A DNA stretch of 64,000 nucleotides, taken from positions 143,287 to 207,286 of the forward strand of contig CAZMQU010000001.1 of the NCBI GenBank assembly GCA_964568715.1, written 5' to 3'. The stretch is from an uncultured Halanaerobiales bacterium (GTDB lineage Bacteria > Bacillota > Halanaerobiia > B1SED10-174). Made by a program: the position numbers and the translations under genes. Below the pieces are notes generated by a model. It was not told where the DNA came from, did not search any database, and saw only the letters and a program-made list of their open reading frames with translations. Shown here in pieces: positions 8,644 through 61,926 of the stretch. Position 1 is the stretch's first letter, and each line of letters opens with the position of its first letter.

Positions 8644-9767
8644 CGTTTATCTTGATTGGACCTGCTGAAATCTTTAAATGTTGCCAAGACATCTTTGAAT
8701 TCAACCGTAAAAAAATGTTCCAGTTTTTCTTTAACCCCGTGCCAATTGCCCTCTTTAACGTATAGGTAGAGAAGAATACCACCTGAAAACACCAAGAGGG
8801 TCGTGACAATGTTTTTAATTATACTTTTGAACAAGGACCACCTGGTCCGAGGGGCGTCCTTTCCATAAAGTACATTATTTACTATAGTTGCCAAATGGGC
8901 TGTACTGGCGATAGCTTCCTCTTTTGTAGTAACATGGGTACCCATTTCAAACAACAAGGCCTGGGGAGATAAATCTTGATTGTATTTACCGTTGGCATAA
9001 AATATGCCCTTAATCAAACCGGGAAACTGTGAATCGCCCGATGCCTTTATTCGTCTGGCCAGTTGATCATTGAGGTTCATGTTGGGATTTTGTCTGCCAA
9101 CCACCAAGCGTATTTGGCTGATAACTTGGCCGCCAACCATTGCAATGTATTCTTCCCGGCGGGGTACTCCGTCCCGGTGGACATCAAATATAGCATCGGC
9201 TCCTTCCCTTATAAACTTCACGGCCGTTGTGCGGGAACGATCGTAGGCAGCTGCATCGTGGGGCAAGTGATTTTCCCAGGACTGCAAAGCATTTATACCT
9301 TTGGCTTGCAATTCTTTTACAAAAGCCGCACCAACTTTATATATGTCACCAAAACCTTCCTTGATTACCTCCCCCGGAAAATAACCTTCACCGGTATGGG
9401 TATGATAGATACCGATTTGTTTTGTTTTTTTTGTCAGGGTAGTTGCGACTTTCGCATCAGCGAATCCGTTTTCTTCATTCCAGCTGGCTTCCGACAAAAG
9501 ATCAACTATACCGAGAAATTCGGCAATTCCTTTTTGTCCATCAACTTCGATAATCAAATATTCACGGTTCAGTTCATTTATATATCTATCACCGACGCTT
9601 ATGCCGATTGTTGTACTGAAAATATAAGAGCCGTTTTTATCGTAAACGGAATATACCTTGGACATTTCCCCGCTGTGGACAACCGGCTGGAAAATTAACA
9701 AAAGCAATAATGCCGCCATAATCATGGCTGATCTATTTTTCATCCTCTCCGGCACCATTCCTTTCAT
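8640..9767 (-). CDS. spoIIP: Stage II sporulation protein P (engulfment peptidoglycan hydrolase); start uncertain (9743 or 9767)
   Basis: IGIYHTHTGEGYFPGE motif and length typical of the SpoIIP family; N-terminal signal/anchor. Confidence 0.8.
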   Translation of the reverse strand: MKGMVPERMKNRSAMIMAALLLLLIFQPVVHSGEMSKVYSVYDKNGSYIFSTTIGISVGDRYINELNREYLIIEVDGQKGIAEFLGIVDLLSEASWNEENGFADAKVATTLTKKTKQIGIYHTHTGEGYFPGEVIKEGFGDIYKVGAAFVKELQAKGINALQSWENHLPHDAAAYDRSRTTAVKFIREGADAIFDVHRDGVPRREEYIAMVGGQVISQIRLVVGRQNPNMNLNDQLARRIKASGDSQFPGLIKGIFYANGKYNQDLSPQALLFEMGTHVTTKEEAIASTAHLATIVNNVLYGKDAPRTRWSLFKSIIKNIVTTLLVFSGGILLYLYVKEGNWHGVKEKLEHFFTVEFKDVLATFKDFSRSNQDKR

Positions 9768-10519: not shown

Positions 10520-12676
10520 TTATTCTTTCTTATTGTTAAAGATATCTCCGACCATATCGGCTATCGTGATATTACTATCATCTCTATGATCAATCAATGC
10601 TGATATCTCTTTTTTGTGCTCTTCAATTTCAATTTCCTTGAGGCTGAGACCTACCTTGCGTTCTTCTTTATTGATGTTGATGATTTTAGCGGTAACCCGG
10701 TCGCCCCTTTTAACAATCTCATCGGCCGACTCAACGTGGCGACGAGCCAATTGGGAAATATGAATCAGACCTTCAATACCATCTTTTATTTCCATAAATG
10801 CACCGAAACTGACAATTTTAGTGATCTCACCCTCTATTTTGTCGCCGACTTGGTACTCAGCAACAAAATTATCCCATGGATCAGGTAAGACTTGCTTGAG
10901 CCCCAAAGAAATTCTTTCCGTTGTAAGGTCGATACTGAGTATTTTAACTTGGATATTTTCGCCTTCCGAAATTATTTTGGAAGGGTGCTCTATTCGACCC
11001 CAAGACATTTCGGAGATATGCAAAAGCCCTTCGATGCCCCCTATATCTATGAAGGCACCGAAATCAACAATTTTGGTTACCAGACCTTCAACGATATCTC
11101 CTTCTGCAATCCGATTTAAGGTAGCCTCTTTTAAATGGGCTTGTTCTTCCTCCAAAACCTTTTTCCGGGAAAGAACAACATTGTTGTTTTTCTTTTCAAC
11201 CTCTAAGACTTTCATTTCAATCCTTTGCCCGACAAATTGACTTAAATCTTCAATATATTCAATGGCAATATGGGAGGCGGGAATGAAACCCCTAAGTCCA
11301 ACATCGGCAACAAGGCCGCCTTTAACAACTTTTGTTACTTCTCCTGTTAGGGTTGTATTATTTTTTTGAGCTTCAATGATATTATCCCAAGCCAAATCAA
11401 GATCAGCTTTTCTTTTGGAAAGTTTGATTTGACCATTTTCGTCCGTTCCCATAAAAGATACCTTTATTTCTTGGCCGGCTTCAAATAATTCGCGGGGATC
11501 ATCAATAGGCTGAGTACCAAGTTCGCGACTGGGTACAAAACCTTCGGTCTTATAGCCGACATCGACAAAAATCCCATCATCGCGAATCTCAACAATTTTG
11601 CCGTCAATTATCAACCCTTTATGAAATTCCTTTAAGCTTTTGTTGTATCCCAAGGCTTCCACAGTATCCATTGGGTGTATCACGTTCTCATCATCGGCTG
11701 GTTTAAAGATTGCTGCATCCTCTGTTTCTTCTTGGATATCCGTCTCCGAATCGTTGGTATCCGTCAGGATATCCTTGCTGCTGTTTTCCTTTTTAATTTC
11801 TTGTTCATTGTTTCCTTTTTCTGATAGTTCACCCATAAATTCCTCAACCTCCTTGATAATCCATTGCTGAGTCGAAGCACCGGCAGTGATGCCGACCCTA
11901 TCTATTCCTATAAACCATTCAGGGTTAATTTCAAGAGAACCTTCAATATGATAAGTGTCTGTTCCGCTTTCTTTGCAAATTCGGACTAAATTTTTGGTAT
12001 TGGAACTGTTTTTGCCGCCGACTACAAGCATTTTATCTACTTTTGACGCCAAGTTGGCTGCTGCTTCTTGCCTCATTTTTGTTACAGTGCAAATTGTATT
12101 ATAAATTCGTAATTCTTTGGCAAAGGGCAATATGGCACAGGCTATAGATTGAAATGTTGTAAAGTTTTTTGTAGTTTGGGCCAATAACCCTATCTTACCG
12201 TGAAGTTTAATTGCAGCCAATTCATCTTCAGACAAGACTGCAATCCCCTTATCTTTAGTATACCCCAAAATTCCCTTTACTTCAGGGTGCAAAGCATCGC
12301 CATAAATAATGACCTTATACTGTTTTTCGTGTAGTAGTTGAGCTATGTTTTGAGCGTTTTGAACATAAGGGCAAGTAGCATCGATAATATGCCAACATCT
12401 GTCTTTCAACTTATCCACCGTGGCGGGAGGCTCACCATGAGAGCGGATAATGACTGTACCGCACTCTCCTTCCGGCAAATCCTCTACAGCATCTATCCAA
12501 CCTATTCCCTTTTCCTTTAAATAATCGACAACCCGGTCATTGTGAATTAAACAGCCTAGAGTATAAATCGGTTTAGGAACGTTGGGATCATCAAGGGCCT
12601 CTAAAACCATGCCGTAGGCCCGCTCAACACCAAAACAAAACCCAGCATTTTCAGCCACTATAATTTCCAAATGCAC
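10520..12676 (-). CDS. ispH: Bifunctional 4-hydroxy-3-methylbut-2-enyl diphosphate reductase (IspH) / ribosomal protein S1-domain fusion
   Basis: N-terminus MHLEIIVAENAGFCFGVERA (IspH/LytB), followed by four S1 repeats; 718 aa. Confidence 0.88.
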   Translation of the reverse strand: MHLEIIVAENAGFCFGVERAYGMVLEALDDPNVPKPIYTLGCLIHNDRVVDYLKEKGIGWIDAVEDLPEGECGTVIIRSHGEPPATVDKLKDRCWHIIDATCPYVQNAQNIAQLLHEKQYKVIIYGDALHPEVKGILGYTKDKGIAVLSEDELAAIKLHGKIGLLAQTTKNFTTFQSIACAILPFAKELRIYNTICTVTKMRQEAAANLASKVDKMLVVGGKNSSNTKNLVRICKESGTDTYHIEGSLEINPEWFIGIDRVGITAGASTQQWIIKEVEEFMGELSEKGNNEQEIKKENSSKDILTDTNDSETDIQEETEDAAIFKPADDENVIHPMDTVEALGYNKSLKEFHKGLIIDGKIVEIRDDGIFVDVGYKTEGFVPSRELGTQPIDDPRELFEAGQEIKVSFMGTDENGQIKLSKRKADLDLAWDNIIEAQKNNTTLTGEVTKVVKGGLVADVGLRGFIPASHIAIEYIEDLSQFVGQRIEMKVLEVEKKNNNVVLSRKKVLEEEQAHLKEATLNRIAEGDIVEGLVTKIVDFGAFIDIGGIEGLLHISEMSWGRIEHPSKIISEGENIQVKILSIDLTTERISLGLKQVLPDPWDNFVAEYQVGDKIEGEITKIVSFGAFMEIKDGIEGLIHISQLARRHVESADEIVKRGDRVTAKIININKEERKVGLSLKEIEIEEHKKEISALIDHRDDSNITIADMVGDIFNNKKE

Positions 12677-33937: not shown

Positions 33938-33970
33938 AAGCGCTAGCAATGCCTTAAGGCATTGCTAGCT
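33938..33970 (-). terminator. Hairpin/terminator overlapping the thrS stop codon
   Basis: GCTAGCAATGCC TTAA GGCATTGCTAGC perfect 12-bp stem; the loop contains the thrS TAA. Confidence 0.55.
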
Positions 33971-35693
33971 TTCTGTTTTTAATTTCATCGGTCAGCATGG
34001 CTACAAATTCTTCAATTTCAAATACACCCATATCACCTTTTGATCGATGTCGTAAAGAAATATTGCAAGCTTGAGTTTCTCTATCGCCCAATACTGCCAT
34101 ATAGGGAAACTTTTGATTTTGGGCTTGGCGAATCTTATAACCGATTTTCTCATCCCTACCGTCCACCGCGGCCCTTATATTTCTCTCATTTAATATCCCT
34201 TGCAATTGCTTAGCATATGAAATATTTTTTTCGCTTATAGGCAGAATGATAACTTGCACAGGGGCAAGCCATAAAGGAAAAGCTCCGGCAAAATGTTCAA
34301 CCAGAATGCCCAAAAATCTTTCCATGGCGCCGAAAAGAGCCCGGTGGAGCAACACTGGACGATGCTCTTGGCCATCGGGACCGACATAGGTTAAATCAAA
34401 GCGTTGCGGTAGTTGGAAATCCAGCTGAATGGTTCCTAATTGCCAGCTGCGTCCCAAACTGTCACTGACGTGAAAATCAATTTTAGGCCCATAAAAAGCC
34501 CCGTCCCCTTCATTTATCATGTAAGCCAAGCCCCGTTTGTCCAAAGCAAGAGCCAAGGCTTGTTCGGCTTTCTCCCAATCCTGCAATGAACCCATATATT
34601 TTTCTGGGCGGGTGCTTAACTCCAAACGATACTCCAGACCGAAGGTATTATATATTTCTTCAGCCATGGCGGTTACACCGAGGACCTCTTCCGTTATCTG
34701 TTCAGGAAGCATATAAATATGGGCATCATCAATATGGAAAGAGCGAACCCGCAAGAGGCCATGAAGAACGCCCGAGAGTTCGTGGCGATGAACCAAGCCC
34801 ATCTCCGCCATACGGAGGGGAAATTCCCTATAGCTGCGTGGTCTCGATTTGTAAATGAGAAGCCCGCCGGGGCAATTCATCGGCCTTATAGCATAGTTGG
34901 TTTCATCGATTGAAGTAAAATACATATTTTCCCGATAGTTTTCCCAATGCCCTGATTGATGCCATAATTCTTCCTTCAGCAAAACCGGGGTCCGAATTTC
35001 TTCATAACCATTTGCATTGTGGAGTTGTCGCCAATATTCGATCAGTTGGTTCCAAACAATGACCCCGCGTGGATGCAAAAAAGGAAATCCCGGCCCCTCA
35101 TCATGGAAACTGAATAAATCAAGCTCCCTGCCCAGTTTTCGATGATCTCTTTTCTTGGCTTCCTCCAAGCGATAAAGGTACTTTTCCAGCTCTTCTTCAC
35201 TGAAAAAAGCCGTACCGTAAATACGTTGCAACATTTTATTCTTTTCATCTCCCCGCCAGTAAGCACCGGCTATACTCAACAACTTAAAAGCCGGTACAGA
35301 ACCCGTTGACTTCAGATGAGGTCCTCGGCAAAGGTCGATAAATTCACCTTGTCGATAAATACTGATATCTTCATCGGCAGGCAACTCGGCAATCAACTCA
35401 AGTTTATATAATTCGCCCATCTCCCTAAAGGTAGCTTCCGCTTCTTCTCTGCCCATTATTACTTTCTCCAAAAGAAGATCTTCAAGAATAATTCTTTTCA
35501 TTTCTTCTTCAATTTTAGCCAAATCATCTGTCGATAAGCGCACGGTCAGGTCAAAATCGTAATAAAAACCATCGTCAATGGACGGACCGATACCCAGTTT
35601 TGCATCGGGATAAATTCTTTTTACAGCTTGGGCAAGAATATGAGATGCTGTATGCCTTAGAGCCTCAAAATCTTTTACTTCCATTCTATACAC
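33954..35693 (-). CDS. thrS: Threonine--tRNA ligase (lacks N-terminal TGS domain)
   Basis: RHTASHILAQAV (editing-domain motif), class II aaRS core, C-terminal anticodon-binding domain; 579 aa. Confidence 0.9.
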   Translation of the reverse strand: MYRMEVKDFEALRHTASHILAQAVKRIYPDAKLGIGPSIDDGFYYDFDLTVRLSTDDLAKIEEEMKRIILEDLLLEKVIMGREEAEATFREMGELYKLELIAELPADEDISIYRQGEFIDLCRGPHLKSTGSVPAFKLLSIAGAYWRGDEKNKMLQRIYGTAFFSEEELEKYLYRLEEAKKRDHRKLGRELDLFSFHDEGPGFPFLHPRGVIVWNQLIEYWRQLHNANGYEEIRTPVLLKEELWHQSGHWENYRENMYFTSIDETNYAIRPMNCPGGLLIYKSRPRSYREFPLRMAEMGLVHRHELSGVLHGLLRVRSFHIDDAHIYMLPEQITEEVLGVTAMAEEIYNTFGLEYRLELSTRPEKYMGSLQDWEKAEQALALALDKRGLAYMINEGDGAFYGPKIDFHVSDSLGRSWQLGTIQLDFQLPQRFDLTYVGPDGQEHRPVLLHRALFGAMERFLGILVEHFAGAFPLWLAPVQVIILPISEKNISYAKQLQGILNERNIRAAVDGRDEKIGYKIRQAQNQKFPYMAVLGDRETQACNISLRHRSKGDMGVFEIEEFVAMLTDEIKNRKLAMP

Positions 35694-35700
35694 CCCTTTT

Positions 35701-35995
35701 AAAAAAATGAACCTTTCGCCTGATAGAGACGAAAGGTTTTCGCGGTTCCACTCTACTAAATCAGTTTAAATAAAGCACTGATTCCCTCAATTTGATAACG
35801 GTCATTGACCGGCCTGTCCTACTCAGTTATTAAATAACCTTCAGCAGGCAGCTCCCAGGTGGTTTTCAAGCCCTGGCACGCAGAAGGATTCCAGCCAAGT
35901 CCTTCTTTCTCTTAGCGCACACTCGGACCCTACTCTTCCTATTCATAGCCATAAAATACAGATATATTTTGTAAACCCATTTTACTTTGAAACAA
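35701..35995 (-). promoter_or_regulatory. T-box riboswitch leader (Thr specifier) with terminator/antiterminator preceding thrS
   Basis: Minus-strand RNA carries AGUAGAGUGGAACCGCG (T-box consensus). It is followed by CCUUUCGUCUCUAUCAGGCGAAAGG + U7, and a candidate specifier sits in GAAAACCACC (ACC = Thr). Confidence 0.8.
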
Positions 35996-36848: not shown

Positions 36849-37670
36849 TTGGAAATTATTGACGGACTCGTAGAGTTGGGTTTTTCCTTATACGAAGCAA
36901 AGGTTTATGCCTCTTTGGTTAGACATCCGAAGGCCACAGGTTACGAGGTCAGCAAATTTTCAGGTGTCCCTCGCGCTAAAGTTTATGAGGTTTTGGAGAG
37001 TTTGTTGCAAAAAGGATTTACTTTTCTAACGGTCGAAGACGGCAAACAGCTTTATTGGCCCTTGGATTATAACACCTTGTTGGATCGTCATCAATCCAAA
37101 TTATTATCCACAGTAGAATCTTTGAAAACTTCTTTTCAACAAATTGAATCCGTAGGAGAGGTTCCTCCCTTCCTTACTATATTGGGGGCTGACAATATTA
37201 TGGCCCAAATTAAGGAGATGTGCGCCTCCAGTCGGACCAATCTGCTTTTAGTCGGCTTTTCATCGGAATTCAATGAAATATTACCTGAACTGACCGTCGC
37301 CGAAAAGAGGGGTGTCGACAGCTATATTCTCCAATACGGTAATGAAGACTTGGGACTGAAAAATCAATTTTTCCATTCAATAAGCCCTCTACAGATCAAA
37401 CAACTCGAACGTTACGGTCGTTGGTTCGGTCTGGTAAAAGATTCCCAAGAAGCAATATTGGCCCAATTCGGCCCTGCTCAAAATACAGCTCTTTTGAGTG
37501 CCAATTTAGGCTTTATTATGGCTCTGACTCTGTGGATTCAACACGATATTGCCGTATACGTTTTTGCGGAAGAAGCAAAAGATATTGAGACTATCCAAAA
37601 TATTTCAGCAAAAGTCAATAAACGCTTGCATAAACTTTGGACAATTAATTTATTCCCCGACCATCAATAA
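36849..37670 (+). CDS. TrmB family transcriptional regulator
   Basis: N-terminal wHTH LGFSLYEAKVYASLVRHPKATGYEVSKFSGVPRAKVYEVLESLLQKGF is typical of TrmB; TTG start. Confidence 0.75.
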   Translation: MEIIDGLVELGFSLYEAKVYASLVRHPKATGYEVSKFSGVPRAKVYEVLESLLQKGFTFLTVEDGKQLYWPLDYNTLLDRHQSKLLSTVESLKTSFQQIESVGEVPPFLTILGADNIMAQIKEMCASSRTNLLLVGFSSEFNEILPELTVAEKRGVDSYILQYGNEDLGLKNQFFHSISPLQIKQLERYGRWFGLVKDSQEAILAQFGPAQNTALLSANLGFIMALTLWIQHDIAVYVFAEEAKDIETIQNISAKVNKRLHKLWTINLFPDHQ

Positions 37671-37769
37671 TTTACAAACTGTTTGGGACAATCTTAAATT
37701 GCTGGAACTTCCGAGAGTAAATCGGTAAAAGAACCACAGTTCAGGTCAATTATTTAGGAGGTTGATAAC

Positions 37770-38642
37770 ATGTCCAAAAGATGTAAAGAAAACCAAAGAT
37801 TATCTTCATTGCTTCCCATTATGAGATGTCCTTATGAGGCTTTACCGCTGACTATGGGCAAAGGTGAAATTTATTCTGAAAAACAACGTTATACAATAGT
37901 CAATGGCATACCTAATTTGGTTGCAACTGATAATCTGGCAGCTTTAGATGAATTATTCCAAAATCAATACGGGGAAAAAACTGCCCGTAGATACGACATG
38001 ATGTTAAAAATGCAGAGCCTATTAATCGGTTGTCGAGAGCCTTCCCAGCGCAAACGTCTTGTTAATTTGCTGAATCCGCCTAAAGGTGGCAGGATATTGG
38101 AAATAGCCGTTGGTACCGGTGCCAATCTCCCCTATCTAGCCCGGGCGATCGGCCCGGAGGGTGAGATTGTCGCTCTGGATCTTTCCTTGGCAATGATGGA
38201 AGAAGCCAAAAGACGGATTGCCAATTTGGGCATTCCGGTTACTTTCATCAGGGCAGACGGATGTTTTTTGCCCTTTAAAGATGACAGTTTCGATGCGGTC
38301 TTCCACTTTGGTGGTATCAATATGTTCGGTAACATAAGAAAAGCTCTCGCAGAAATGGTTCGCGTAGCCAAACCGGCTGCCCCGATAATAGTCAGCGATG
38401 AAGGGATGTCAGAAAAAAGACGGCAGACCCGGTTGGGCCGCATCGTCGGTAATGTCAATTCTTTGAATCTTTGTCGCCCTCCATTCGACAAACTGCCTTG
38501 GCATGAAATCCGTGACTTCCGTTTACATTGGGCTTGGCGGGAGATATTCTATGTTCATCGCTTTATTAAAGGTGTTCAAGAAGATATCGGGCCGAATAAA
38601 GGAACCGACGAAATTATACAGGATCGAATCGGCCCGGCCTGA
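37770..38642 (+). CDS. Class I SAM-dependent methyltransferase
   Basis: ILEIAVGTGANL (motif I), DAVFHF, Methyltransf_11-like core; N-terminal CPY zinc-ribbon-like segment. Confidence 0.7.
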   Translation: MSKRCKENQRLSSLLPIMRCPYEALPLTMGKGEIYSEKQRYTIVNGIPNLVATDNLAALDELFQNQYGEKTARRYDMMLKMQSLLIGCREPSQRKRLVNLLNPPKGGRILEIAVGTGANLPYLARAIGPEGEIVALDLSLAMMEEAKRRIANLGIPVTFIRADGCFLPFKDDSFDAVFHFGGINMFGNIRKALAEMVRVAKPAAPIIVSDEGMSEKRRQTRLGRIVGNVNSLNLCRPPFDKLPWHEIRDFRLHWAWREIFYVHRFIKGVQEDIGPNKGTDEIIQDRIGPA

Positions 38643-38680: not shown

Positions 38681-38716
38681 TAAAAGAAAGGCGCCGTAGA
38701 AAAGGCGCCTTTCTTG
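38681..38716. terminator. Bidirectional terminator between the methyltransferase and kamE
   Basis: AAAGGCGCC gtagaaa GGCGCCTTT hairpin with A-run and T-run flanks. Confidence 0.7.
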
Positions 38717-38750
38717 CTAACCACCTTGGTAGTGGTCAAAAATATTAAAT

Positions 38751-39497
38751 TTATTTCCCAAGCCTGTCCGGCAGTTGTTTGGCAATATAAGCCGCCACAT
38801 CAGGGGGCAATGTGCCAACACCGAAACCGGCATCAAATCCCAGCTCCAGAGCTAATTCGTGAGAAATCCTCGGCCCGCCCACCAGTAAGATAAATCTTTC
38901 CCGCATATCCTCCGCTTCCAGCAACTCAACCAGTTCGGTTAAATTCACCATGTGGATTCCCCGTTGGGTCACTACTTGAGATACCAATATGGCATCAGCA
39001 TTTACTGCTGTTGCTTTTTTAATCAACTCTTCATTGGGAATTTGACTGCCCAGGTTGTAGGTTTCAAACCAAGGGTATCTTTCCAATCCCGATTCGCCGG
39101 CAAAACCTTTCATATTCATAATAGCGTCAAGACCTACCGTGTGAGCATCTGAACCGGTACAAGCACCAACGACAACGATTTTTCGACCAATTTTTTCTTT
39201 TATATAATCGTTGATTTCTGAAAAAGACATCTTTTCCTGTTGAATTTCCGTTACTGTGATATTGGCCAAATTTATCGAGACAGAAGTTTTGGCATAAATT
39301 ACAAAAAAAGTATAGTCCAAAGATAAATCCTTCATTGCGACAATATCGATATCAAACAAATTCATTTTTTCAGCCAGTTGGCGGGCGGCCTCTCTCGCCC
39401 TAGGCCCTGCTTTGATTGGCAAGGTAAAACTCAATTGCACCTTTCCATCATTAAAGCTATCTCCATAAGGTTTTATCATCTTTTCCAGTGGCTTCAA
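38751..39497 (-). CDS. kamE: Lysine 5,6-aminomutase beta subunit (B12-binding)
   Basis: VVVGACTGSDAHTVGLDAI (DxHxxG cobalamin-binding motif), 248 aa, immediately downstream of the alpha subunit. Confidence 0.8.
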   Translation of the reverse strand: MKPLEKMIKPYGDSFNDGKVQLSFTLPIKAGPRAREAARQLAEKMNLFDIDIVAMKDLSLDYTFFVIYAKTSVSINLANITVTEIQQEKMSFSEINDYIKEKIGRKIVVVGACTGSDAHTVGLDAIMNMKGFAGESGLERYPWFETYNLGSQIPNEELIKKATAVNADAILVSQVVTQRGIHMVNLTELVELLEAEDMRERFILLVGGPRISHELALELGFDAGFGVGTLPPDVAAYIAKQLPDRLGK

Positions 39498-41095
39498 ATC
39501 TTCAACTCCTTTTTAAAATAGTCCAAAAAAGGATTGTAGTAATCTTTATCTTTCTCTATAAGCCCCCCATAGCCTTTGCCACCATCCTCGGAGCGCGTTA
39601 TGTCAGCAAACATCCCTGCCGCTATTGCTTGAGGCAACCCTATCTCGGCGATACTTTCCAACAAGGCGGTCGTTGCTGACAAAACTTCGCTGGCTCTTCT
39701 TTGAATTTTACCTTTTGGCGAAATCATTATCTCGTCATGAATATTGCGGGCATTGTTAAATATATAACGGGCATTTTCGATACTCAAAGTCCGATCATGC
39801 ATAAAAGGCGTATGGATTGCCTCCGTAAGCATCCCTAAAAGTTGTATTCCTTGCCCTGTTAAAATAGAAACAAAATTGAACATGCCATTCATCAAATGGC
39901 CTTTGAATATATCACCGCTCACATATTTTGTCGGTGGCATATACTTCAAAGGGGAATCGGGAAATATTTGCCGTATCAATTGGGCCTGAGCAATCTCCAA
40001 CAAAAATCCGTCTTCCAAATCAGGATCTATTTCAAAAGCATGGCCCAAACCCATTTGCCAAGATTTTAAGCCTGATCGGAAAGCCAATTCTTCATTGATA
40101 AATTGCGATGCCAAAACCGTATGACCTTTTTCGACAGCATCGGAGGTAGTCAAATAATTGTCCTCGCCGGTATTGATGATTATACCGGCATAGGCTGAAA
40201 TCATCCGGGAAAAATACTGGTCGACAAATGTTCTCTTCATATTAATGTCCCTAAATAAAATACCATACATGGCATCGTTTAAAAGCATATCCAGCCTCTC
40301 AAGGGCACCCATAGCAGCTATTTCCGGCATACATAGGCCTGATGAATAATTTACCAGTGAAATATATCTTCCCAATTCACAGGAGACCTCATCGAGGGCT
40401 TTCCGCATTATTTTAAAGTTTTCCTGAGTTGCATAGGTGCCCCCGAACCCTTCCCTAGTGGCTCCATAAGGCACATAATCAAGAAGGCTCTGGGCGGTTG
40501 TTCTTATTACGGCAATAATATCGGCACCGTTTCTAGCAGCAACCTTGGCCTGAACAACATCATCATAAATATTGCCGGTGGCAACAATTACATACAACCA
40601 CGGCTGCGGACCCCGCGGGTAAATTTCCATCAATTCTTGTCGCTCTTCTCTTTTGGTCACGATAGCTTGGCAGGCTCCTTCCACATACTTCTCCATGGTT
40701 GATTTTATTATTGAGAGAGAAGAAAGCGGAACTTCTTTTAGAGACAAACCGCCCGCATTTATCCGGTCAGCAATTTCCTGTGGGGAATTACCGGTTGTCA
40801 CCATCGCATTCCCCAACCAAAACGCAATACCTTTGGTCAATATTCCTTCATCTTGTGCCTGTTTTATTATTATGTTGGGCAAAGGTACACCATCATTATC
40901 GACACCATCAATTCCCAATAATCTCAACACAGTTCTTTCCACTGACACGGTAGTATTTAGCTCGATATGGCCTTGAATGCTGTCGGCAATATTTTTTGCA
41001 GCATTGCGACAACGCTTTACCATGTTTTTATCGACAAAAAGCTTATTTTTCAGTGCAACCACCTCCGCTAAAGTATTCTTTGCTCTTAACATCAA
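39494..41095 (-). CDS. kamD: Lysine 5,6-aminomutase alpha subunit (PLP TIM-barrel); true start probably the ATG at 41023
   Basis: 533 aa; ...TTVSVERTVLRLLGIDGVDNDGVPLPNII... N-terminal region and overall length match KamD; overlaps kamE by 4 nt. Confidence 0.8.
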   Translation of the reverse strand: MMLRAKNTLAEVVALKNKLFVDKNMVKRCRNAAKNIADSIQGHIELNTTVSVERTVLRLLGIDGVDNDGVPLPNIIIKQAQDEGILTKGIAFWLGNAMVTTGNSPQEIADRINAGGLSLKEVPLSSLSIIKSTMEKYVEGACQAIVTKREERQELMEIYPRGPQPWLYVIVATGNIYDDVVQAKVAARNGADIIAVIRTTAQSLLDYVPYGATREGFGGTYATQENFKIMRKALDEVSCELGRYISLVNYSSGLCMPEIAAMGALERLDMLLNDAMYGILFRDINMKRTFVDQYFSRMISAYAGIIINTGEDNYLTTSDAVEKGHTVLASQFINEELAFRSGLKSWQMGLGHAFEIDPDLEDGFLLEIAQAQLIRQIFPDSPLKYMPPTKYVSGDIFKGHLMNGMFNFVSILTGQGIQLLGMLTEAIHTPFMHDRTLSIENARYIFNNARNIHDEIMISPKGKIQRRASEVLSATTALLESIAEIGLPQAIAAGMFADITRSEDGGKGYGGLIEKDKDYYNPFLDYFKKELKI

Positions 41096-42131
41096 AGATG
41101 GGAATTTCCTTAATGTGCTCCCGTAAAGCTGCCAGGAAGCGGTACGGTTGGAAACTGCTTCCTTCAGGATTAAAAGGATTGGCTGTCAATGCAATTAAAT
41201 TAATCGGATTCAAAGTAAAAATTTGCAGATGATTTTCCCGGAAAATCTTATATCCTTGCGACGATAAAAAATTTTTGGTGCCATCCTTAATAATTATTGA
41301 AGAACCCGACAATTTACCTTTAAAAAAGTTACAATAATCTGCCAAAAAACTATCTGTAAGAGCACCTGATAAAACTAAAGAACTGATTGACAAGATTTTG
41401 TCTCTGGAAATGTTTTCAGGCAATTGAAAGGACAAAGGCGTTTTGAACATCGATACGGTTCCGTTTTTTTCAATAATTCCCCCTTTACCCTCGTCGGTAA
41501 TTGCCAATGCTTTTCGATGAAGATCCTGATCAGGAATTGGTGTGTGAGTTAATTTTTTTACTTCCCGGCGGGTGCGGGCAACCACATTTTCAATGGTATT
41601 ACCCAGAACGGCACCTGTTGCCAAAATAACGCCATCAGTTAAAAGGGGTGCCGCAGAGCTACGACGATCAAAGGCACCGTCTACGAGAAGCAAATCAACT
41701 TCATTTCTGATTAGGGCTCTAATCTTATTAAGCCCCAAAGCTGTATTGATACCGACCAATTCAACCTCCCCACCCCTTTCACCGCTGCGGTAAATATTCA
41801 CTTCACCTAATACAGTATTTATACCGGTACCAATAAATTTTTCGTATTGAAAGAGGCAATGCTCCATTACTTTCTCTGCAGTAACAAACAGGGTTCGCGG
41901 CGGAATAAAAACCTGCGGCTTATCTTTGTTGGTTACCAAATCAATTCTTTCTCCGTCCCGGCCAAAAGAAACGAGACCCAAGGTAACCTTTTTTTCAGAA
42001 AGCTCGGCTACCAAGGTATTGAATGTCACAGTTTTACCGGCATTTTTTGCCAGACCTACTATCGCTATTGCCTCATAATTATTGTTGGTAATTAATTTAT
42101 TCAACTGTCCAACCACCATTATATTTCCCAA
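41043..42131 (-). CDS. Uncharacterised P-loop (SIMIBI-like) NTPase encoded immediately upstream of kamD/kamE
   Basis: Deviant Walker A AIAIVGLAKNAGKTVTFNTL, followed by hydrophobic-strand-Asp DLLLVDGAFD; 362 aa. Confidence 0.5.
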   Translation of the reverse strand: MGNIMVVGQLNKLITNNNYEAIAIVGLAKNAGKTVTFNTLVAELSEKKVTLGLVSFGRDGERIDLVTNKDKPQVFIPPRTLFVTAEKVMEHCLFQYEKFIGTGINTVLGEVNIYRSGERGGEVELVGINTALGLNKIRALIRNEVDLLLVDGAFDRRSSAAPLLTDGVILATGAVLGNTIENVVARTRREVKKLTHTPIPDQDLHRKALAITDEGKGGIIEKNGTVSMFKTPLSFQLPENISRDKILSISSLVLSGALTDSFLADYCNFFKGKLSGSSIIIKDGTKNFLSSQGYKIFRENHLQIFTLNPINLIALTANPFNPEGSSFQPYRFLAALREHIKEIPIFDVKSKEYFSGGGCTEK

Positions 42132-45654: not shown

Positions 45655-46134
45655 TTATAGGGAACTTTCCGGGGCAGCCTTGCCGGTCATGTGATCGATG
45701 GAAATCTCAATTAAACAGACCTTTGCCCATCCTTTCCTAATTACTTCCTCTGCTTCAACGGAATAATCGGGAAAATATTTTTCAACCAGTAGATCGAGGG
45801 CCTTTCTTTTCTGCAAGTCATCGGTAATAAAAACAGCCCGGCCAAAAAGGCAAACGCTGCGAAAATGGGTAGTAAATTCTTTTTGGACAATGTCATCCCT
45901 TTCTATTACGCAAAAGGTTACCTTGTCATTATTTTTTATACTCTCGATCTTATGTCCTTTTTGAGCACTATGCAAGTAAATTTTACCTTTTTCATAAGCA
46001 TAACTCATAGGAACGGTGTAGGGATAACCGTTTTTATCGATGGTACCTAAAACCCCCGAAGTACACTTATTTAATATCTTTATCGATTCTTCCTTTGCCA
46101 AAAGTTTTTCTTTCCTGCGCATCTTTCTAAACAT
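45655..46134 (-). CDS. Pyridoxamine 5'-phosphate oxidase-like FMN-binding split-barrel protein
   Basis: 159 aa PNPOx-like family member (GYPYTVPMSYAY...). Confidence 0.7.
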   Translation of the reverse strand: MFRKMRRKEKLLAKEESIKILNKCTSGVLGTIDKNGYPYTVPMSYAYEKGKIYLHSAQKGHKIESIKNNDKVTFCVIERDDIVQKEFTTHFRSVCLFGRAVFITDDLQKRKALDLLVEKYFPDYSVEAEEVIRKGWAKVCLIEISIDHMTGKAAPESSL

Positions 46135-46730: not shown

Positions 46731-47549
46731 TTATTGGGGTAAAACTTCATGTAACTTTTTTCGCCTTGGAGAAAATTCCATTACATTTTTGCCCACTTGG
46801 ATATTGACATGGGGGCAAGCTGTACATTCAAAACAGCGAATACATTCGGGACTATTTGGTTCTTCATATACTTTTAAATCCATGGGACAAATATCTTGGC
46901 ACCTTCCGCATTTTGTACAACCATCACCAACATTTAATTTCAAAAAACTGTATCTGTTGAATAAGGAATATATTGCACCCAATGGGCAAACAAAACGGCA
47001 AAAAAACCTTTTTGAAAATATAAAAGAAAATAAAAATACGACCGTCAAAGCCAATTTTCCGTAAAAGAAGGGCCCGATGACTTGCCGGATGCTTTTATCG
47101 GTTACCGCCAATGGTACCCCGCCCTCCAAGGTACCGACAAAACACAGTTTGGAAAACCATGGTTCCCCGCTAATATATGGTATAAACAAGACCAATACCA
47201 ACAATACGATATATTTAAAAAATCTCAACTGTGTGCAATTAATTTTGATTTTGGGCGTTGGTATCTTGTATAGCATTTCTTGCAGCCAGCCTATTGGACA
47301 AGCCCAACCGCATATCAACCTACCCACGGTGGACCCGATAAGGGTAAAAAATCCGATCAACAGGAAGGGTATTTTTTTAATAACCATAAAATGCTGCAGA
47401 CTGCCAATTGGGCAAGCTCCCAAGGCCCAAGGGCAGGCATAACAGTTCAAGGCCGGAACTGGGCAGTATTTAAAAGTAAACCCAAATGGATTATATAAAA
47501 CGAAAGACAGCATTTGAACGTATTTGCGAATACTTCTTTTTTTCAACAA
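46731..47549 (-). CDS. NapH/MauN-like membrane polyferredoxin (4Fe-4S binding)
   Basis: CYACPWALGACPIG and CGWACPIGWLQ N-terminal CxxCP motifs, TM helices, C-terminal CTKCGRCQDICP and CIRCFECTACP ferredoxin motifs. Confidence 0.8.
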   Translation of the reverse strand: MLKKRSIRKYVQMLSFVLYNPFGFTFKYCPVPALNCYACPWALGACPIGSLQHFMVIKKIPFLLIGFFTLIGSTVGRLICGWACPIGWLQEMLYKIPTPKIKINCTQLRFFKYIVLLVLVLFIPYISGEPWFSKLCFVGTLEGGVPLAVTDKSIRQVIGPFFYGKLALTVVFLFSFIFSKRFFCRFVCPLGAIYSLFNRYSFLKLNVGDGCTKCGRCQDICPMDLKVYEEPNSPECIRCFECTACPHVNIQVGKNVMEFSPRRKKLHEVLPQ

Positions 47550-50099: not shown

Positions 50100-51134
50100 C
50101 TAAACTTTACTGAAGTATTGATAAATACTCCTTTTGGCATTGTCCAAGGTTAACAAACTACCCTTTAAAGTCAGTTTAATATTCATTTTTGCTGCTACGG
50201 GATTTAGGATTGAAAAAGCTTTGTTTTTGGAGACGCAAATTTTTTCCGGCAAAACACCGATCCGATCGATTATGTCTATTAAATTGTTTTGGTAGCCACA
50301 GGGATATTCGTGTTCTTCCAGTAATTTATAATCAATAATTTCTTTTGATTGCGCATCAATCCACAAACATATATACGGATAATAGGGTCGATTGCATTTT
50401 TCTGATTGAATGGGAAATGGCGAATAAAATATATCCGTTAGCCACATTACTGATCTTCGCTTTGCATTTTTGCCCACTTTTTTTATCCTTAATTCATCTA
50501 CCGGCGGGCAAACAATTATTTCCTCAACATGGGGGTCCACTGTAATCCAATCATCGGTCCACAAGTCTTTGTTATCTTTATTCTTGACTCGCAATAAGAA
50601 AGTATTTTCATCCTTTTTTAAAAGCATTGACGGGTCTTCGCGGTGACGCAAAGCAATTTCACCGGCTTGTTCCAAAGCAACCGTCAAAAATCTGATCTCT
50701 TTATTATTTAGAAACCAAGGATAATAACCAGGATAATAACTGCGAAAAAACGGCCAGTTCTTTAAACCATGATATTTCAAACCCAACTCTTTTATTATGT
50801 TTAAATCTTCTTTTTCCAGATAATTTCTATCTTCAAAAGAAGCCATCAAACACTTTTGGACATGTACCATTTCTGCATCGTAGGGTCCGACTTCTCCGTT
50901 GAGAATCTTTAAGTATCCCAGTAAACCTTCGATGCCCAAATAAACGACCAGAGCATATATTTCTTGGTTGTTACCTAGAATCACGCAAAAACCTATCTCC
51001 CCGTCAGCGGGGTTTTGAACTGCAAAAAGATCGGTATCGCACATCCATTCCCAAGATTTAAGCGCTTTGAAATATTCGGCTGCTTGATATAGGTCCCGCC
51101 AATCTCTATATGAAGGGGTTGGTTTATTCAACAT
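50100..51134 (-). CDS. Uncharacterised 344-aa protein (no recognisable domain)
   Basis: Long ORF rich in Tyr/Trp/Pro, no TM segments, no known motif recognised. Confidence 0.5.
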   Translation of the reverse strand: MLNKPTPSYRDWRDLYQAAEYFKALKSWEWMCDTDLFAVQNPADGEIGFCVILGNNQEIYALVVYLGIEGLLGYLKILNGEVGPYDAEMVHVQKCLMASFEDRNYLEKEDLNIIKELGLKYHGLKNWPFFRSYYPGYYPWFLNNKEIRFLTVALEQAGEIALRHREDPSMLLKKDENTFLLRVKNKDNKDLWTDDWITVDPHVEEIIVCPPVDELRIKKVGKNAKRRSVMWLTDIFYSPFPIQSEKCNRPYYPYICLWIDAQSKEIIDYKLLEEHEYPCGYQNNLIDIIDRIGVLPEKICVSKNKAFSILNPVAAKMNIKLTLKGSLLTLDNAKRSIYQYFSKV

Positions 51135-54505: not shown

Positions 54506-55516
54506 TTATGCTTCAATTGTTATCGCATGGGCAATCGCCGGAATGTTTTCACCTTGCTGAACTGAAACGGGGCTATGCAAAGAGCCGGTGGCAAGCAATA
54601 ATATTTTACTGTATTCTTTCTTTAAAAGTTTTTTATAGATATAGCCGAATGTCACTAAGGCGGATGACGCACAACCGCTGGCTCCGGCGTGAACATCCTG
54701 TTTACGCCTGTCGTAAATCATCAAACCGCAATCATTATAATTAGCGGAAAGGTCATAGCCGCCCCTTCGTTTCATTAATTCTTTGGCTAAATCCAAGCCG
54801 TTTTGACCCAAATCACCGCTAAGAATCAAGTCATAGTCTTGGGGAGAAAATCCGGTATCAACGAAATGATTCCGCAATGTATCGGCAAAGCCCGGTGCCA
54901 TTGCCGCACCAAGATTATATGGGTCTTTGATGCCTAAATCAACAACTCTGCCGATTGTAATATGGGTTAGGCGAGGGCCTTCACCGGAAGAGGCGACTAA
55001 AGCTGCACCGGCACCCGTAGCGGTGTATTGAATCGAGGGCTTACGGAAAAAACCATACTCCACCGGATACCTGAACTGTCGTTCGGCAGTAGAATTATGG
55101 CTTGATGTTGCAGCCATAGCCAAACGGGCAAAACCACCGTCGATCAATATGGCAGCAATCGACAAAGCCAGGACAGAGGAAGAACAAGCCCCGTATATAC
55201 CGATAAAGGGTCTTTTTAATTCCAATGCCACATAAGTGGAAGTAATAATTTGATTCAAAAGATCACCGGAAATAAAAAACCCTAAGTCCTGCTGATTGAC
55301 GTTTACTTTATTAAGACAAGTATAGCAAGCATTTAGAAGCATTTCTTTTTCTGCCTTTTCAAAACTTTTGGTTCCCGCCATTGTATCAGTATATACGTGG
55401 TCAAGATATTTACCCAAAGGTCCCTTTCCTTCCAAGGGACCGCCGACAGCGGCAGTACTCAGCACTACAGGAGGAGTGCTAAACTTGTAAGTATTTTTAC
55501 CGATTAGTTTTTTCAA
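54506..55516 (-). CDS. spoVAD: Stage V sporulation protein AD (thiolase-fold DPA-binding protein)
   Basis: 336 aa, KAS-III-like fold, IGIYGACSSSVLALSIAA. Confidence 0.9.
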   Translation of the reverse strand: MKKLIGKNTYKFSTPPVVLSTAAVGGPLEGKGPLGKYLDHVYTDTMAGTKSFEKAEKEMLLNACYTCLNKVNVNQQDLGFFISGDLLNQIITSTYVALELKRPFIGIYGACSSSVLALSIAAILIDGGFARLAMAATSSHNSTAERQFRYPVEYGFFRKPSIQYTATGAGAALVASSGEGPRLTHITIGRVVDLGIKDPYNLGAAMAPGFADTLRNHFVDTGFSPQDYDLILSGDLGQNGLDLAKELMKRRGGYDLSANYNDCGLMIYDRRKQDVHAGASGCASSALVTFGYIYKKLLKKEYSKILLLATGSLHSPVSVQQGENIPAIAHAITIEA

Positions 55517-61002: not shown

Positions 61003-61926
61003 TTATAGCTGTAACAACAAGGGCACAAGGAGCGGCACCAAAATAGATAGAAACAAGCCGCTTACGAAGGCGGGTAAAATCATTTCATCACCGGCGGCTT
61101 TTTTAACCAGGGGCAGGGTGGTATCCATTGCAGTTGCACCACCGGGTGCAATTGCAGCAATTTTGCCTAGCCAGCGAGCAATAAGCGGCAAAGCTAAAAA
61201 AGTAAAAAGTTCGCGGATTAAATTTGCCAAAAAGCTAAGGGTCCCCAATTCAACGCTGTGCATGTTTGTCGTGATAATCCCGGCCAAGCTGTACCAGCCA
61301 AACCCCGCCCCTACGGCAGCTGCTTCATTACAGCTCATATTCCAAAAGAAACCTACCGTCATGGCACCGGCAATGCTTCCCACTCCAATCAAAACCGGAT
61401 ACACAACCAGGCGCCAACCGTAAGAAATGCCTTCTTTTAATAAAGAAAGATTCCTGCCCAAACTCAAACCGATAGAAAAGAGAAGCAAGCCTTCAGCTAT
61501 TGCCACTACCAAAGGGCTATATTTTAATAAAGGCCATGACTTAAAACAACAGCCAACGGCAAAACCCAACAGCAAAACGGCAAGCAAAATCAATGTAAAT
61601 ATGCCACTGCCGTGAACGCTGTCCACATCGTAAGTTTTCTTGGCTTTCTTCCCTTTCGTTTTTAAGGATGGGCTTAAAAGCTGTATAAACAAAAGGCTGC
61701 CGAAGATACTGCCCAATGCCAGAGTCAAAGCTTGCACTCCCATCGGCAACAAATGAGCCAGCAAACCTTCGTCCGTAGCAATCGTCGTTCCCATAGCAGT
61801 GATAAGGGTCAAGAGACAGATATTTAAAACAATATCCACCCCTTTGAAAAATTTCGAAGGAAAACGGTAAGCAAGGGTAATAATAAATCCGGCGATAAAA
61901 GCTATTAAAATAATAGGAATGCCCAT
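61003..61926 (-). CDS. lysO: LysO-family (DUF340, YbjE-like) lysine exporter membrane protein
   Basis: 307 aa polytopic membrane protein with the two-repeat DUF340 architecture. Confidence 0.6.
   Translation of the reverse strand: MGIPIILIAFIAGFIITLAYRFPSKFFKGVDIVLNICLLTLITAMGTTIATDEGLLAHLLPMGVQALTLALGSIFGSLLFIQLLSPSLKTKGKKAKKTYDVDSVHGSGIFTLILLAVLLLGFAVGCCFKSWPLLKYSPLVVAIAEGLLLFSIGLSLGRNLSLLKEGISYGWRLVVYPVLIGVGSIAGAMTVGFFWNMSCNEAAAVGAGFGWYSLAGIITTNMHSVELGTLSFLANLIRELFTFLALPLIARWLGKIAAIAPGGATAMDTTLPLVKKAAGDEMILPAFVSGLFLSILVPLLVPLLLQL

What the first reader, a model, noticed from the sequence alone, without database searches (positions are those of the whole stretch)
38751..42131. Orphan B12/PLP lysine 5,6-aminomutase pair (kamD/kamE) co-encoded with an unrecognised P-loop NTPase
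kamD (533 aa) and kamE (DxHxxG cobalamin motif) are clearly present. None of the other lysine-fermentation genes (kamA, kdd, kce, kal) is in the window. The only co-oriented partner is a 362-aa protein with a deviant Walker A (GLAKNAGKTVTF) and a SIMIBI-like Walker B (DLLLVDGAFD). B12 radical enzymes usually need a dedicated chaperone or reactivase, which is MeaB for MCM and the MutL/GlmL and DhaFG types for other mutases. A P-loop NTPase translationally coupled to an aminomutase would be a different, undescribed accessory such as a cofactor loader or reactivase, and the substrate of this orphan mutase is open. The neighbours are a divergent TrmB regulator with a methyltransferase on one side and mpg-pcp-ggt on the other.
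Basis: partly seen in the sequence, partly recalled or inferred. Interest (0 to 1): 0.72.

Follow-up and report, generated by a model that had tools for sequence, protein, structure and literature searches.

The report
Lysine aminomutase with its KamB helper
The three genes are a normal B12-dependent lysine 5,6-aminomutase and its usual P-loop helper protein KamB, which NCBI already names as a reactivase subunit, so this is an ordinary but biochemically untested module in an unusual, isolated genomic position.

Summary
kamB (41043-42119), kamD (39494-41092) and kamE (38751-39497) form one tightly packed minus-strand unit, and no other lysine-fermentation gene lies in the 64 kb window.

The 362-aa protein is not unrecognised. 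It passes NCBIfam's equivalog model NF052386, "lysine 5,6-aminomutase reactivase subunit KamB" (303.5 bits, cutoff 210). Pfam has no model, source databases call the relatives hypothetical, and I found no open paper that tests the function.

All 78 informative related loci place KamB next to kamDE or inside a lysine-fermentation cluster. Three gene orders occur: kamB-kamC-kamDE (32 loci), kamB-kamDE (26, including this window) and kamDE-kamB (14).

The predicted structure has a SIMIBI-class P-loop domain and a cytidine-deaminase-like C-terminal domain. The nucleotide-binding residues are invariant whether or not KamC is present.

KamDE keeps every cobalamin and PLP contact checked, so a new substrate is not indicated. 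The module is under purifying selection.

Most likely KamB is the nucleotide-dependent activator or cofactor-exchange chaperone of KamDE, working here without KamC. This is a new member of a known kind, of moderate interest.

The parts
41043..42119 (-). kamB. 358 aa from ATG 42119; the longest ORF starts at TTG 42131 and gives 362 aa. Two-domain accessory protein of lysine 5,6-aminomutase.
   Evidence: NCBIfam NF052386 at 303.5 bits against a cutoff of 210. No Pfam family. Close relatives are 358 aa and the start aligns with L089. AF2 model has pLDDT 89.2 and pTM 0.88.
42021..42056 (-). Walker A / P-loop, GLAKNAGKTVTF (residues 26-37 of the 362-aa ORF).
   Evidence: K29, N30, K33 and T34 are invariant in 68 homologues and in all 85 KamB sequences from every gene architecture.
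41667..41696 (-). Walker B strand, DLLLVDGAFD (residues 146-155), followed by the invariant R156.
   Evidence: D151, G152 and R156 are invariant. The segment lies on strand E147-151 of the P-loop domain.
41949..41969 (-). Family signature S55-x-G-R-D-G-E61 (SFGRDGE), after the second strand of the P-loop domain.
   Evidence: S55, G57, D59, G60 and E61 are invariant in all 85 KamB. R58 is invariant in the 68-sequence alignment and is replaced by Y in 3 of 85. A role in the nucleotide or Mg site is inferred, not shown.
41066..41546 (-). C-terminal domain of KamB (about residues 196-355). Cytidine-deaminase-like fold with no conserved Cys or His that could bind zinc. Conserved motifs: G256-A, D283-x-T-x-x-F288, N318-P-x-x-P322.
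39494..41092 (-). [quoted passage not shown] 532 aa from ATG 41092, overlapping the 3' end of kamB by 50 nt.
   Evidence: PF09043 at E=3.4e-256. NF052384 at 861.7 bits against 600. 8t0v_A at E=2.4e-210. All PLP side-chain contacts are conserved.
38751..39497 (-). [quoted passage not shown] The TTG start overlaps the kamD stop (TTGA).
   Evidence: PF16554 and PF02310. NF052385 at 381 bits against 280. 1xrs_B at E=1.7e-88.
39108..39149 (-). Cofactor motif in KamE: D117-A-H119-T-V-G122 (cobalt-ligand His) through K130 (PLP Schiff-base Lys).
   Evidence: Residue-by-residue alignment with 1xrs_B H133/K144.
38684..38739 (-). Two hairpins after the kamE stop. The second (38684-38715) has a 12-bp G+C-rich stem flanked by an A-run and a U-run. 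It is a likely bidirectional terminator between kamE and the convergent methyltransferase gene.
   Evidence: RNA fold gives -30.9 kcal/mol, z = -5.97, with 0 of 200 shuffles as stable. The simple terminator scan missed it because the T-run is short.

Best explanation
The region is a kamB-kamD-kamE module. KamDE is a canonical adenosylcobalamin- and PLP-dependent lysine 5,6-aminomutase, acting on L-beta-lysine and/or D-lysine.

The upstream 358-aa protein is a member of the KamB family, the constant genomic partner of KamDE. KamB has a SIMIBI-class P-loop NTPase domain and a cytidine-deaminase-like C-terminal domain.

Its most likely role is that of the ATP-dependent "E2" activating protein described for the clostridial enzyme. 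It would use nucleotide binding and hydrolysis, probably as a dimer as other SIMIBI proteins do. That would open suicide-inactivated KamDE, release damaged cobalamin and allow reloading with adenosylcobalamin.

In this organism it would do so without the MutS-like ATPase KamC that accompanies it in many clostridial-type clusters.

Shown here:
- family membership
- gene linkage
- fold
- conservation of the nucleotide-binding site
- intact KamDE active site
- purifying selection

Inferred:
- the reactivation or cofactor-exchange activity
- ATP as the nucleotide
- dimerisation
- independence from KamC
For: Membership: NF052386 at 303.5 bits against 210.

Linkage:
- Among 86 KamB loci, 72 have kamB directly beside kamC, kamD or kamE.
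- The 6 remaining informative loci are still inside kamDE, kdd or kamA clusters.
- 14 kamDE-kamB loci on high-GC contigs show no other pathway gene. Four of them (L074, L075, L077, L081) have about 10 kb of flank on both sides, so the link is to the mutase itself and not to the pathway.
- A complete pathway cluster, L090, has kamB but no kamC.

NTPase competence: K29, N30, K33, T34, D59, E61, D151 and R156 are invariant in all 85 KamB, with or without KamC.

Fold:
- The C-domain has a cytidine-deaminase-like fold. Its hits include FdhD, solved in complex with GDP and annotated as a formate dehydrogenase accessory protein.

Biochemical precedent: 5,6-LAM purified from clostridia needs an auxiliary activating protein E2 of about 80 kDa that acts with ATP. 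Recombinant KamDE alone is active but undergoes suicide inactivation to cob(III)alamin (PMC3958899). Two KamB chains of about 39 kDa each would give about 79 kDa; this is my inference.

Functional module: dN/dS against an 88%-identical relative is 0.17 for kamB, 0.06-0.16 for kamD and 0.05 for kamE. The housekeeping neighbours mpg and pcp give 0.10 and 0.17.
Against: - I found no experiment on KamB in the accessible literature. The NCBIfam name may rest on gene context plus the 1970s E2 biochemistry.
- NCBIfam labels KamC, not KamB, as the reactivase ATPase. That implies a two-subunit machine, and kamC could lie outside the 64 kb window.
- From my own recollection, which I could not check because the papers are not held, Frey's laboratory reported that E2 and ATP did not rescue the recombinant enzyme.
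- Nucleotide specificity is not determined. The best fold matches include both GTPases (FlhF, SRP54) and ATPases (BioD, MinD).
- No complex prediction was possible with these tools.
Confidence: 0.6

Rival explanations
1. KamB works only as one subunit of a KamB-KamC reactivase, as the NCBIfam names imply. In this genome kamC is encoded outside the window, so the module seen here is an incomplete view.
For: 32 of 72 adjacent loci have kamC between kamB and kamD. The L007 MutS_V protein scores 575.6 bits on NF052383, "reactivase ATPase KamC". Only 64 kb of a 281-kb contig is visible.
Against: - KamC-less KamB forms whole clades in the KamB tree, not scattered losses.
- Loci with 10 kb on both sides, including complete pathway clusters (L005, L008, L011, L090), have no kamC.
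- KamB keeps an invariant P-loop in every architecture. That is not expected of a passive subunit.
- The window has no MutS_V homologue at E<1e-3.
Confidence: 0.2
2. KamB is a cofactor-supply enzyme and not a release chaperone. It would adenosylate enzyme-bound or free cob(I/II)alamin with ATP, matching the "dAdoCbl synthetase" activity reported for E2, and deliver AdoCbl to KamDE.
For: The review PMC3958899 states that isolated E2 showed dAdoCbl synthetase activity and transferred label from [8-14C]ATP to E1. The C-terminal domain has a fold that binds nucleotides or nucleotide cofactors in other proteins such as FdhD and PurH.
Confidence: 0.12
3. One reading: an orphan mutase with a new substrate, served by a previously undescribed class of accessory protein, unrelated to lysine fermentation.
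For: - No kamA, kdd, kce, kal or kat lies in 64 kb.
- The neighbours are housekeeping genes: ggt, pcp, mpg, thrS.
- The same pcp-mpg-kamB-kamD-kamE order is kept in an 88%-identical relative.
- High-GC soil bacteria also carry isolated kamDE-kamB modules.
Against: - The accessory family is curated.
- KamDE passes equivalog cutoffs and keeps all PLP and B12 contacts, including D298, the residue suggested to influence substrate specificity.
- In three of the high-GC kamDE-kamB loci the module sits beside lysS. That still points to lysine.
- Related loci split the pathway across sites (L006).
Confidence: 0.06

Closest known systems
KamB, NCBIfam NF052386 (lysine 5,6-aminomutase reactivase subunit)
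   Same: Full-length match over model positions 1-326 and above the curated cutoff. Same two-domain length class of 330-380 aa. Same position directly upstream of kamD. All family-invariant residues are present.
   Different: At most 44% identical to anything outside its own lineage. No kamC partner and no other lysine-fermentation gene nearby. It scores 303 bits, against 422 for a clostridial-type member.
E2, the ATP-dependent activating protein of clostridial lysine 5,6-aminomutase (Stadtman-era biochemistry, summarised in PMC3958899)
   Same: An auxiliary protein specific to the KamDE core enzyme and dependent on ATP. The reported mass of about 80 kDa would fit a KamB dimer (inference).
   Different: The genes for E2 are not identified in any paper I could read. 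E2 could be KamB2, KamB-KamC or something else.
MeaB/MMAA (G3E-family GTPase chaperone of methylmalonyl-CoA mutase)
   Different: No Pfam hit to any G3E family. The N68-K-D-K71 stretch is not conserved as an NKxD guanine-specificity motif; only K71-P72 is invariant. MeaB is absent from the top 60 fold matches. From general knowledge, G3E proteins lack the extra cytidine-deaminase-like domain that KamB carries.
ASKHA-type B12 reactivases (DdrAB/PduGH for diol dehydratase, EutA, GlmL/MutL for glutamate mutase)
   Same: The proposed job is the same: ATP-driven release of damaged cobalamin from a suicide-inactivated B12 radical enzyme. This rests on general knowledge and on the Toraya and Mori reference cited in PMC3958899.
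   Different: The fold is entirely different. KamB is a P-loop protein and not an actin/Hsp70-like ATPase.
MobB and the DUF1611 / DgcN P-loop domain
   Different: All hits fall below Pfam gathering scores; the window protein scores 13.6 bits on MobB against 26.6. From general knowledge, DUF1611 proteins carry the P-loop domain C-terminally, whereas in KamB it is N-terminal.

Membership tests
KamB (NCBIfam NF052386) | Whole-protein HMM score at or above the curated equivalog cutoff of 210 bits | tested here: met
   303.5 bits, E=1.5e-90, model positions 1-326 of 326
KamB (NCBIfam NF052386) | Encoded next to the lysine 5,6-aminomutase genes kamD and kamE | tested here: met
   The kamB stop overlaps the kamD start. 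The same adjacency holds in 72 of 78 informative loci.
KamB (NCBIfam NF052386) | Partner ATPase KamC (NF052383, MutS domain V) encoded alongside | tested here: not met
   No KamC homologue in the window (tblastn, E<1e-3). KamC is also absent from 40 of 72 adjacent loci, so it does not define the family.
KamB (NCBIfam NF052386) | Reactivates or activates KamDE in a nucleotide-dependent way | not testable with these tools
   Needs biochemistry. No published test was found.
Lysine 5,6-aminomutase KamDE | Alpha and beta subunits above equivalog cutoffs and homologous to solved 5,6-LAM structures | tested here: met
   861.7 bits against 600 and 381 against 280. 8t0v/1xrs matches at E=1e-200 or better for alpha and 1.7e-88 for beta.
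Lysine 5,6-aminomutase KamDE | DxHxxG cobalt-ligand His and PLP Lys in beta; PLP contacts R184, Q188, S189, Y236, S238, Y263, R268, D298, N299 in alpha | tested here: met
   All are conserved. Only G187, a main-chain contact, is Ala, as it is in 8t0v.
G3E GTPases (MeaB, UreG, HypB, CobW) | Pfam or HMM match to a G3E family, and an NKxD guanine-specificity motif | tested here: not met
MinD/ParA/NifH deviant Walker A ATPases | KGGxxGK[ST] with the signature lysine five residues before the GK[ST] lysine, and a CbiA/ParA HMM match | tested here: not met
Dethiobiotin synthetase / CobQ-type (AAA_26) | HMM match to PF13500 or the CobQ N-terminal domain | tested here: not met
ASKHA-type B12 reactivases (DdrA/PduG, EutA, GlmL) | Actin/Hsp70-like ATPase fold | tested here: not met

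The most novel reading that the evidence does not exclude
KamB, not KamC, is the universal core of the long-unidentified E2 activase of lysine 5,6-aminomutase, and it is sufficient on its own. It would be a dimerising SIMIBI-class NTPase fused to a zinc-less cytidine-deaminase-like domain that handles the cofactor. That would make it a mechanistically new class of B12 chaperone or reactivase, distinct from G3E (MeaB) and ASKHA (DdrA, EutA, GlmL) types. KamC would be a lineage-specific add-on. The isolated kamBDE modules in this spore-former, and beside lysS in high-GC soil bacteria, would then point to a role for lysine 5,6-aminomutase outside classical lysine fermentation.
Probability: 0.35. 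Interest if true: 0.6.

Novelty: new member of a known kind. Interest (0 to 1): 0.35.

Why it matters
Recombinant lysine 5,6-aminomutase inactivates itself within minutes. That limits its study and its proposed use as a biocatalyst (PMC3958899).

The ATP-dependent helper "E2" seen in clostridial extracts has, in the literature I could reach, never been tied to a gene by experiment.

The data here give a concrete candidate to test. KamB is the one protein that always travels with KamDE. It keeps an intact nucleotide site in every lineage. In about half of the lineages it has no KamC beside it.

This is a sharper and directly testable hypothesis about an old question. It does not arise from anything special in this window, and the family is already named in NCBI's annotation resource.

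Tried and rejected
An alignment query should have been used. The metagenome scan with alignment A1 made up for it.
- The afdb50 fold library was unavailable.
- Literature searches for kamB, kamC, reactivase, reactivating and MutS together with the aminomutase found no gene-level study. The term "kamB" mostly retrieves a 16S rRNA methyltransferase and the kambo frog.
- Chang and Frey 2000 and the second DOI tried, which I recalled as Kreimeyer et al. 2007, are not held.
- A profile search of solved structures with the KamB alignment found nothing meaningful; the best E was 0.24, to a de novo designed protein.
- The apparent split of kamD in the close relative L089 looked like a pseudogene. It is a run of N in the scaffold.
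- The sigma-70 promoter scan gave no more sites than shuffled sequence and none in the 87-nt mpg-kamB spacer. Whether kamBDE has its own promoter or is read through from mpg is unresolved.
- Rfam found no lysine or cobalamin riboswitch. The only hit in the window is the thrS T-box.
- Alignment A4 compared non-homologous sequence and was discarded.
- I considered G3E, MinD/ParA, BioD/CobQ and ASKHA membership and rejected each (see membership tests).
Full report
**What is in the sequence**

On the minus strand, three ORFs are packed head to tail.
- The first is a 362-aa ORF at 41043-42131. Its best start is ATG 42119, giving 358 aa. That matches the 358-aa close relatives and the alignment with locus L089.
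- The second is kamD at 39494-41095. Gene callers use ATG 41092, giving 532 aa.
- The third is kamE at 38751-39497.

kamB and kamD overlap, and kamD and kamE share TTGA. Downstream of kamE lie two stable hairpins (-30.9 kcal/mol, z = -5.97). The second looks like a bidirectional terminator shared with the convergent methyltransferase gene. Upstream, only 87 nt separate kamB from mpg. No terminator and no convincing promoter was found there. Rfam finds no riboswitch in the region.

**KamDE is canonical**

KamD and KamE pass Pfam and NCBIfam equivalog models by wide margins. They align end to end with solved D-lysine 5,6-aminomutase chains 1XRS, 8T0V and 9Q1A.

The cobalt-ligand His and the PLP Lys of KamE are present. 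So are the PLP contacts listed for the C. sticklandii enzyme: R184, Q188, S189, Y236, S238, Y263, R268, D298 and N299 (PMC3958899). The one exception is G187, a main-chain contact, which is Ala here as in 8T0V.

Nothing suggests a different substrate.

**The 362-aa protein is KamB**

Pfam has no family for it. NCBIfam release 20 does: NF052386, "lysine 5,6-aminomutase reactivase subunit KamB", an equivalog model. The window protein scores 303.5 bits against a cutoff of 210 over the full model.

The model is one of several consecutively numbered lysine-fermentation models seen here: NF052383 KamC, 384 KamD, 385 KamE, 386 KamB, 388 Kal and 389 Kal-Kce.

Every source name among 120 listed homologues that has one is "hypothetical protein", apart from one "GTPase SAR1 family protein". 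There is no solved structure.

I could find no open paper that assigns or tests the function. A 2025 paper devoted to suicide inactivation of 5,6-LAM does not use the words reactivation, ATP or activating protein. In 2011 the two genes were drawn in lysine-fermentation clusters simply as "HP" and "mutS" (PMC3149608).

**Co-conservation**

I collected 8 loci by exact-protein look-up and 80 metagenome loci with a profile of the family. I annotated them by tblastn with reference proteins taken from those loci.

Of the 86 loci used in the count:
- 32 are kamB-kamC-kamD-kamE
- 26 are kamB-kamD-kamE
- 14 are kamD-kamE-kamB
- 8 are too short to judge
- 6 have kamB elsewhere in a cluster that still holds kamDE, kdd or kamA

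So all 78 informative loci tie KamB to the aminomutase.

The family is sizeable. It has 2,310 clusters at 50% identity, of which 1,951 match at E<=1e-10. Nearly all of the 150 listed are 320-390 aa.

**KamC is optional and KamB is constant**

The MutS-domain-V protein between kamB and kamD in clostridial-type clusters is NCBIfam's "reactivase ATPase KamC" (575.6 bits). The window has no homologue of it.

A distance tree of 85 KamB sequences splits largely by gene order:
- a KamC-less kamB-kamD clade that includes the window as a deep branch
- a high-GC kamDE-kamB clade
- a KamC-containing group with a second KamC-less clade (Asgard and marine sediment) nested inside it

Complete pathway clusters without kamC exist, namely L005, L008, L011 and L090.

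The residues K29, N30, K33, T34, S55, G57, D59, G60, E61, D64, K71, P72, D151, G152, R156, N318 and P322 are invariant in all 85 sequences, whatever the architecture. I read this as KamB being an active NTPase in its own right, not a passive partner of KamC.

**Fold**

With 68 homologues, AlphaFold2 gives a confident model (pLDDT 89.2, pTM 0.88).

The C-terminal 165 residues, modelled separately (pLDDT 88.6), have a cytidine-deaminase-like fold. Matches are LpxI (8.3), TM1506/DUF1893 (8.2), PurH (8.1), dCMP deaminases (7-8) and FdhD (7.5-7.7). There is no conserved Cys or His that could bind zinc. The domain is therefore a non-deaminase member of that fold. A ligand- or partner-binding role is my inference.

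This two-domain combination differs from every B12 chaperone or reactivase type that I know. That comparison rests on my own knowledge of the field.

**Mechanism proposed**

5,6-LAM purified from clostridia consisted of the core E1 (KamDE) plus an auxiliary activating protein E2 of about 80 kDa that works with ATP. Recombinant KamDE is active but inactivates itself by electron transfer that leaves cob(III)alamin (PMC3958899).

KamB is the only protein always encoded with KamDE. It has an invariant nucleotide site, and a dimer would weigh about 79 kDa.

I therefore propose that KamB is the E2-type activase. It would be a nucleotide-dependent switch that binds inactivated KamDE, opens the B12 domain, and allows damaged cobalamin to leave and AdoCbl to enter. 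My confidence is about 0.6.

Membership, linkage, fold and conservation are shown. The activity, the nucleotide and the oligomeric state are inferred. The rivals are a KamC encoded elsewhere (0.2), an adenosyltransferase-like supply role (0.12) and a truly new substrate or function (0.06).

**The "orphan" aspect**

It is true that kamA, kamC, kdd, kce, kat and kal are absent from the 64 kb window. The surroundings are core genes of a spore-forming Firmicute:
- SpoIVA, SpoIIP and SpoVAD
- Der, FabF and RecG
- ack-pta
- thrS with a T-box
- ggt, pcp and mpg

The order pcp-mpg-kamB-kamD-kamE is kept in a relative that is 88% identical at the nucleotide level. dN/dS is 0.17 for kamB, 0.06-0.16 for kamD and 0.05 for kamE, similar to mpg (0.10) and pcp (0.17). 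The module is therefore maintained by selection.

Isolation in the window is weak evidence for an isolated function, for two reasons.
- In the related locus L006, kamBDE sits with CoA-transferase and thiolase, but no kamA, kdd or kce lies within 10 kb.
- Pathway genes are known to be scattered in some organisms (PMC3149608).

Only 64 kb of a 281-kb contig is visible.

**Verdict**

The functional guess, a dedicated accessory of the mutase, is supported and agrees with existing curation. The claims of novelty and of an open substrate are not supported.

I rate this a new member of a known kind, with interest 0.35. The residual value is the hypothesis that KamB alone is the missing E2, which is easy to test.

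Noticed in passing
L075:6085-7614, L047:3802-5337, L076:3233-4687 (with L074, L077 and L081 for context): 14 loci on 63-72% GC contigs have the order kamD-kamE-kamB. The four with 10-kb flanks show no other lysine-fermentation gene. In three of the 14 loci the module lies directly beside a full-length lysine-tRNA ligase: L075 scores 541 bits on NF001756 against 468, and L047 and L076 are about 60% identical to it. This recurrent lysS-kamDE-kamB linkage in non-fermentative-looking contexts is unexplained.
   Followed up: partly
L076:1-6546: Two convergent copies of the module (kamD-kamE-kamB on the plus strand, and kamB-kamE on the minus strand) flank the lysS gene on one 7.3-kb high-GC contig. 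This is either a real inverted duplication or an assembly artefact.
   Followed up: no
window 61003-61926 (-): A LysO-type lysine exporter (PF03956, E=3e-60). It is 36% identical to the gene that sits directly upstream of kamB, after a sigma-54 activator, in L001, L005, L006, L011, L014 and L015. Here it is 19 kb away and no sigma-54 activator is in the window.
   Followed up: partly
window 35722-35955 (-): T-box leader (RF00230, 119.4 bits) upstream of the threonyl-tRNA synthetase gene at 33954-35693. It is the only Rfam hit in the window.
   Followed up: no
window 36849-38642 (+): A TrmB-family regulator is followed by a UbiE/Methyltransf_25-type methyltransferase, both convergent with kamE. 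The TrmB protein has a good N-terminal HTH match but only a weak hit to the TrmB effector domain (E=0.0022). The methyltransferase also gives a weak hit to the corrinoid-protein-associated methyltransferase CpaM (42.7 bits, cutoff 180). No link to kamBDE is shown.
   Followed up: no
window 50100-51134 (-): A 344-aa protein made of two domains of unknown function, DUF7309 (E=4e-61) and DUF6930 (E=1.7e-27). It has no NCBIfam match.
   Followed up: no
window 45655-46134 (-) and 46731-47549 (-): A PNPOx-fold protein resembles NimABCDEF 5-nitroimidazole reductases (190.6 bits, below the 260 cutoff). Two genes further on is a NapH/MauN-like polyferredoxin membrane protein.
   Followed up: no
window 10520-12676 (-): An IspH-ribosomal protein S1 fusion (NF000907, 745.7 bits). 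Together with SpoIVA (2269-3747), SpoIIP (8640-9767) and SpoVAD (54506-55516), it marks the source as an endospore-forming Firmicute.
   Followed up: no
L089:4086-4095: The close relative's kamD appears as two gene calls only because of a 10-N scaffold gap. It is not a pseudogene.
   Followed up: yes
L005:6294-7376, L090:5338-6411, and homologues in L011, L014 and L015: An Orr-like PLP racemase (L090 scores 417 bits on the ornithine racemase model, below its 480 cutoff) sits between kamA and the sigma-54 activator in the KamC-less Halanaerobiales-type clusters. It may be a lysine or beta-lysine racemase feeding the D-lysine branch.
   Followed up: no
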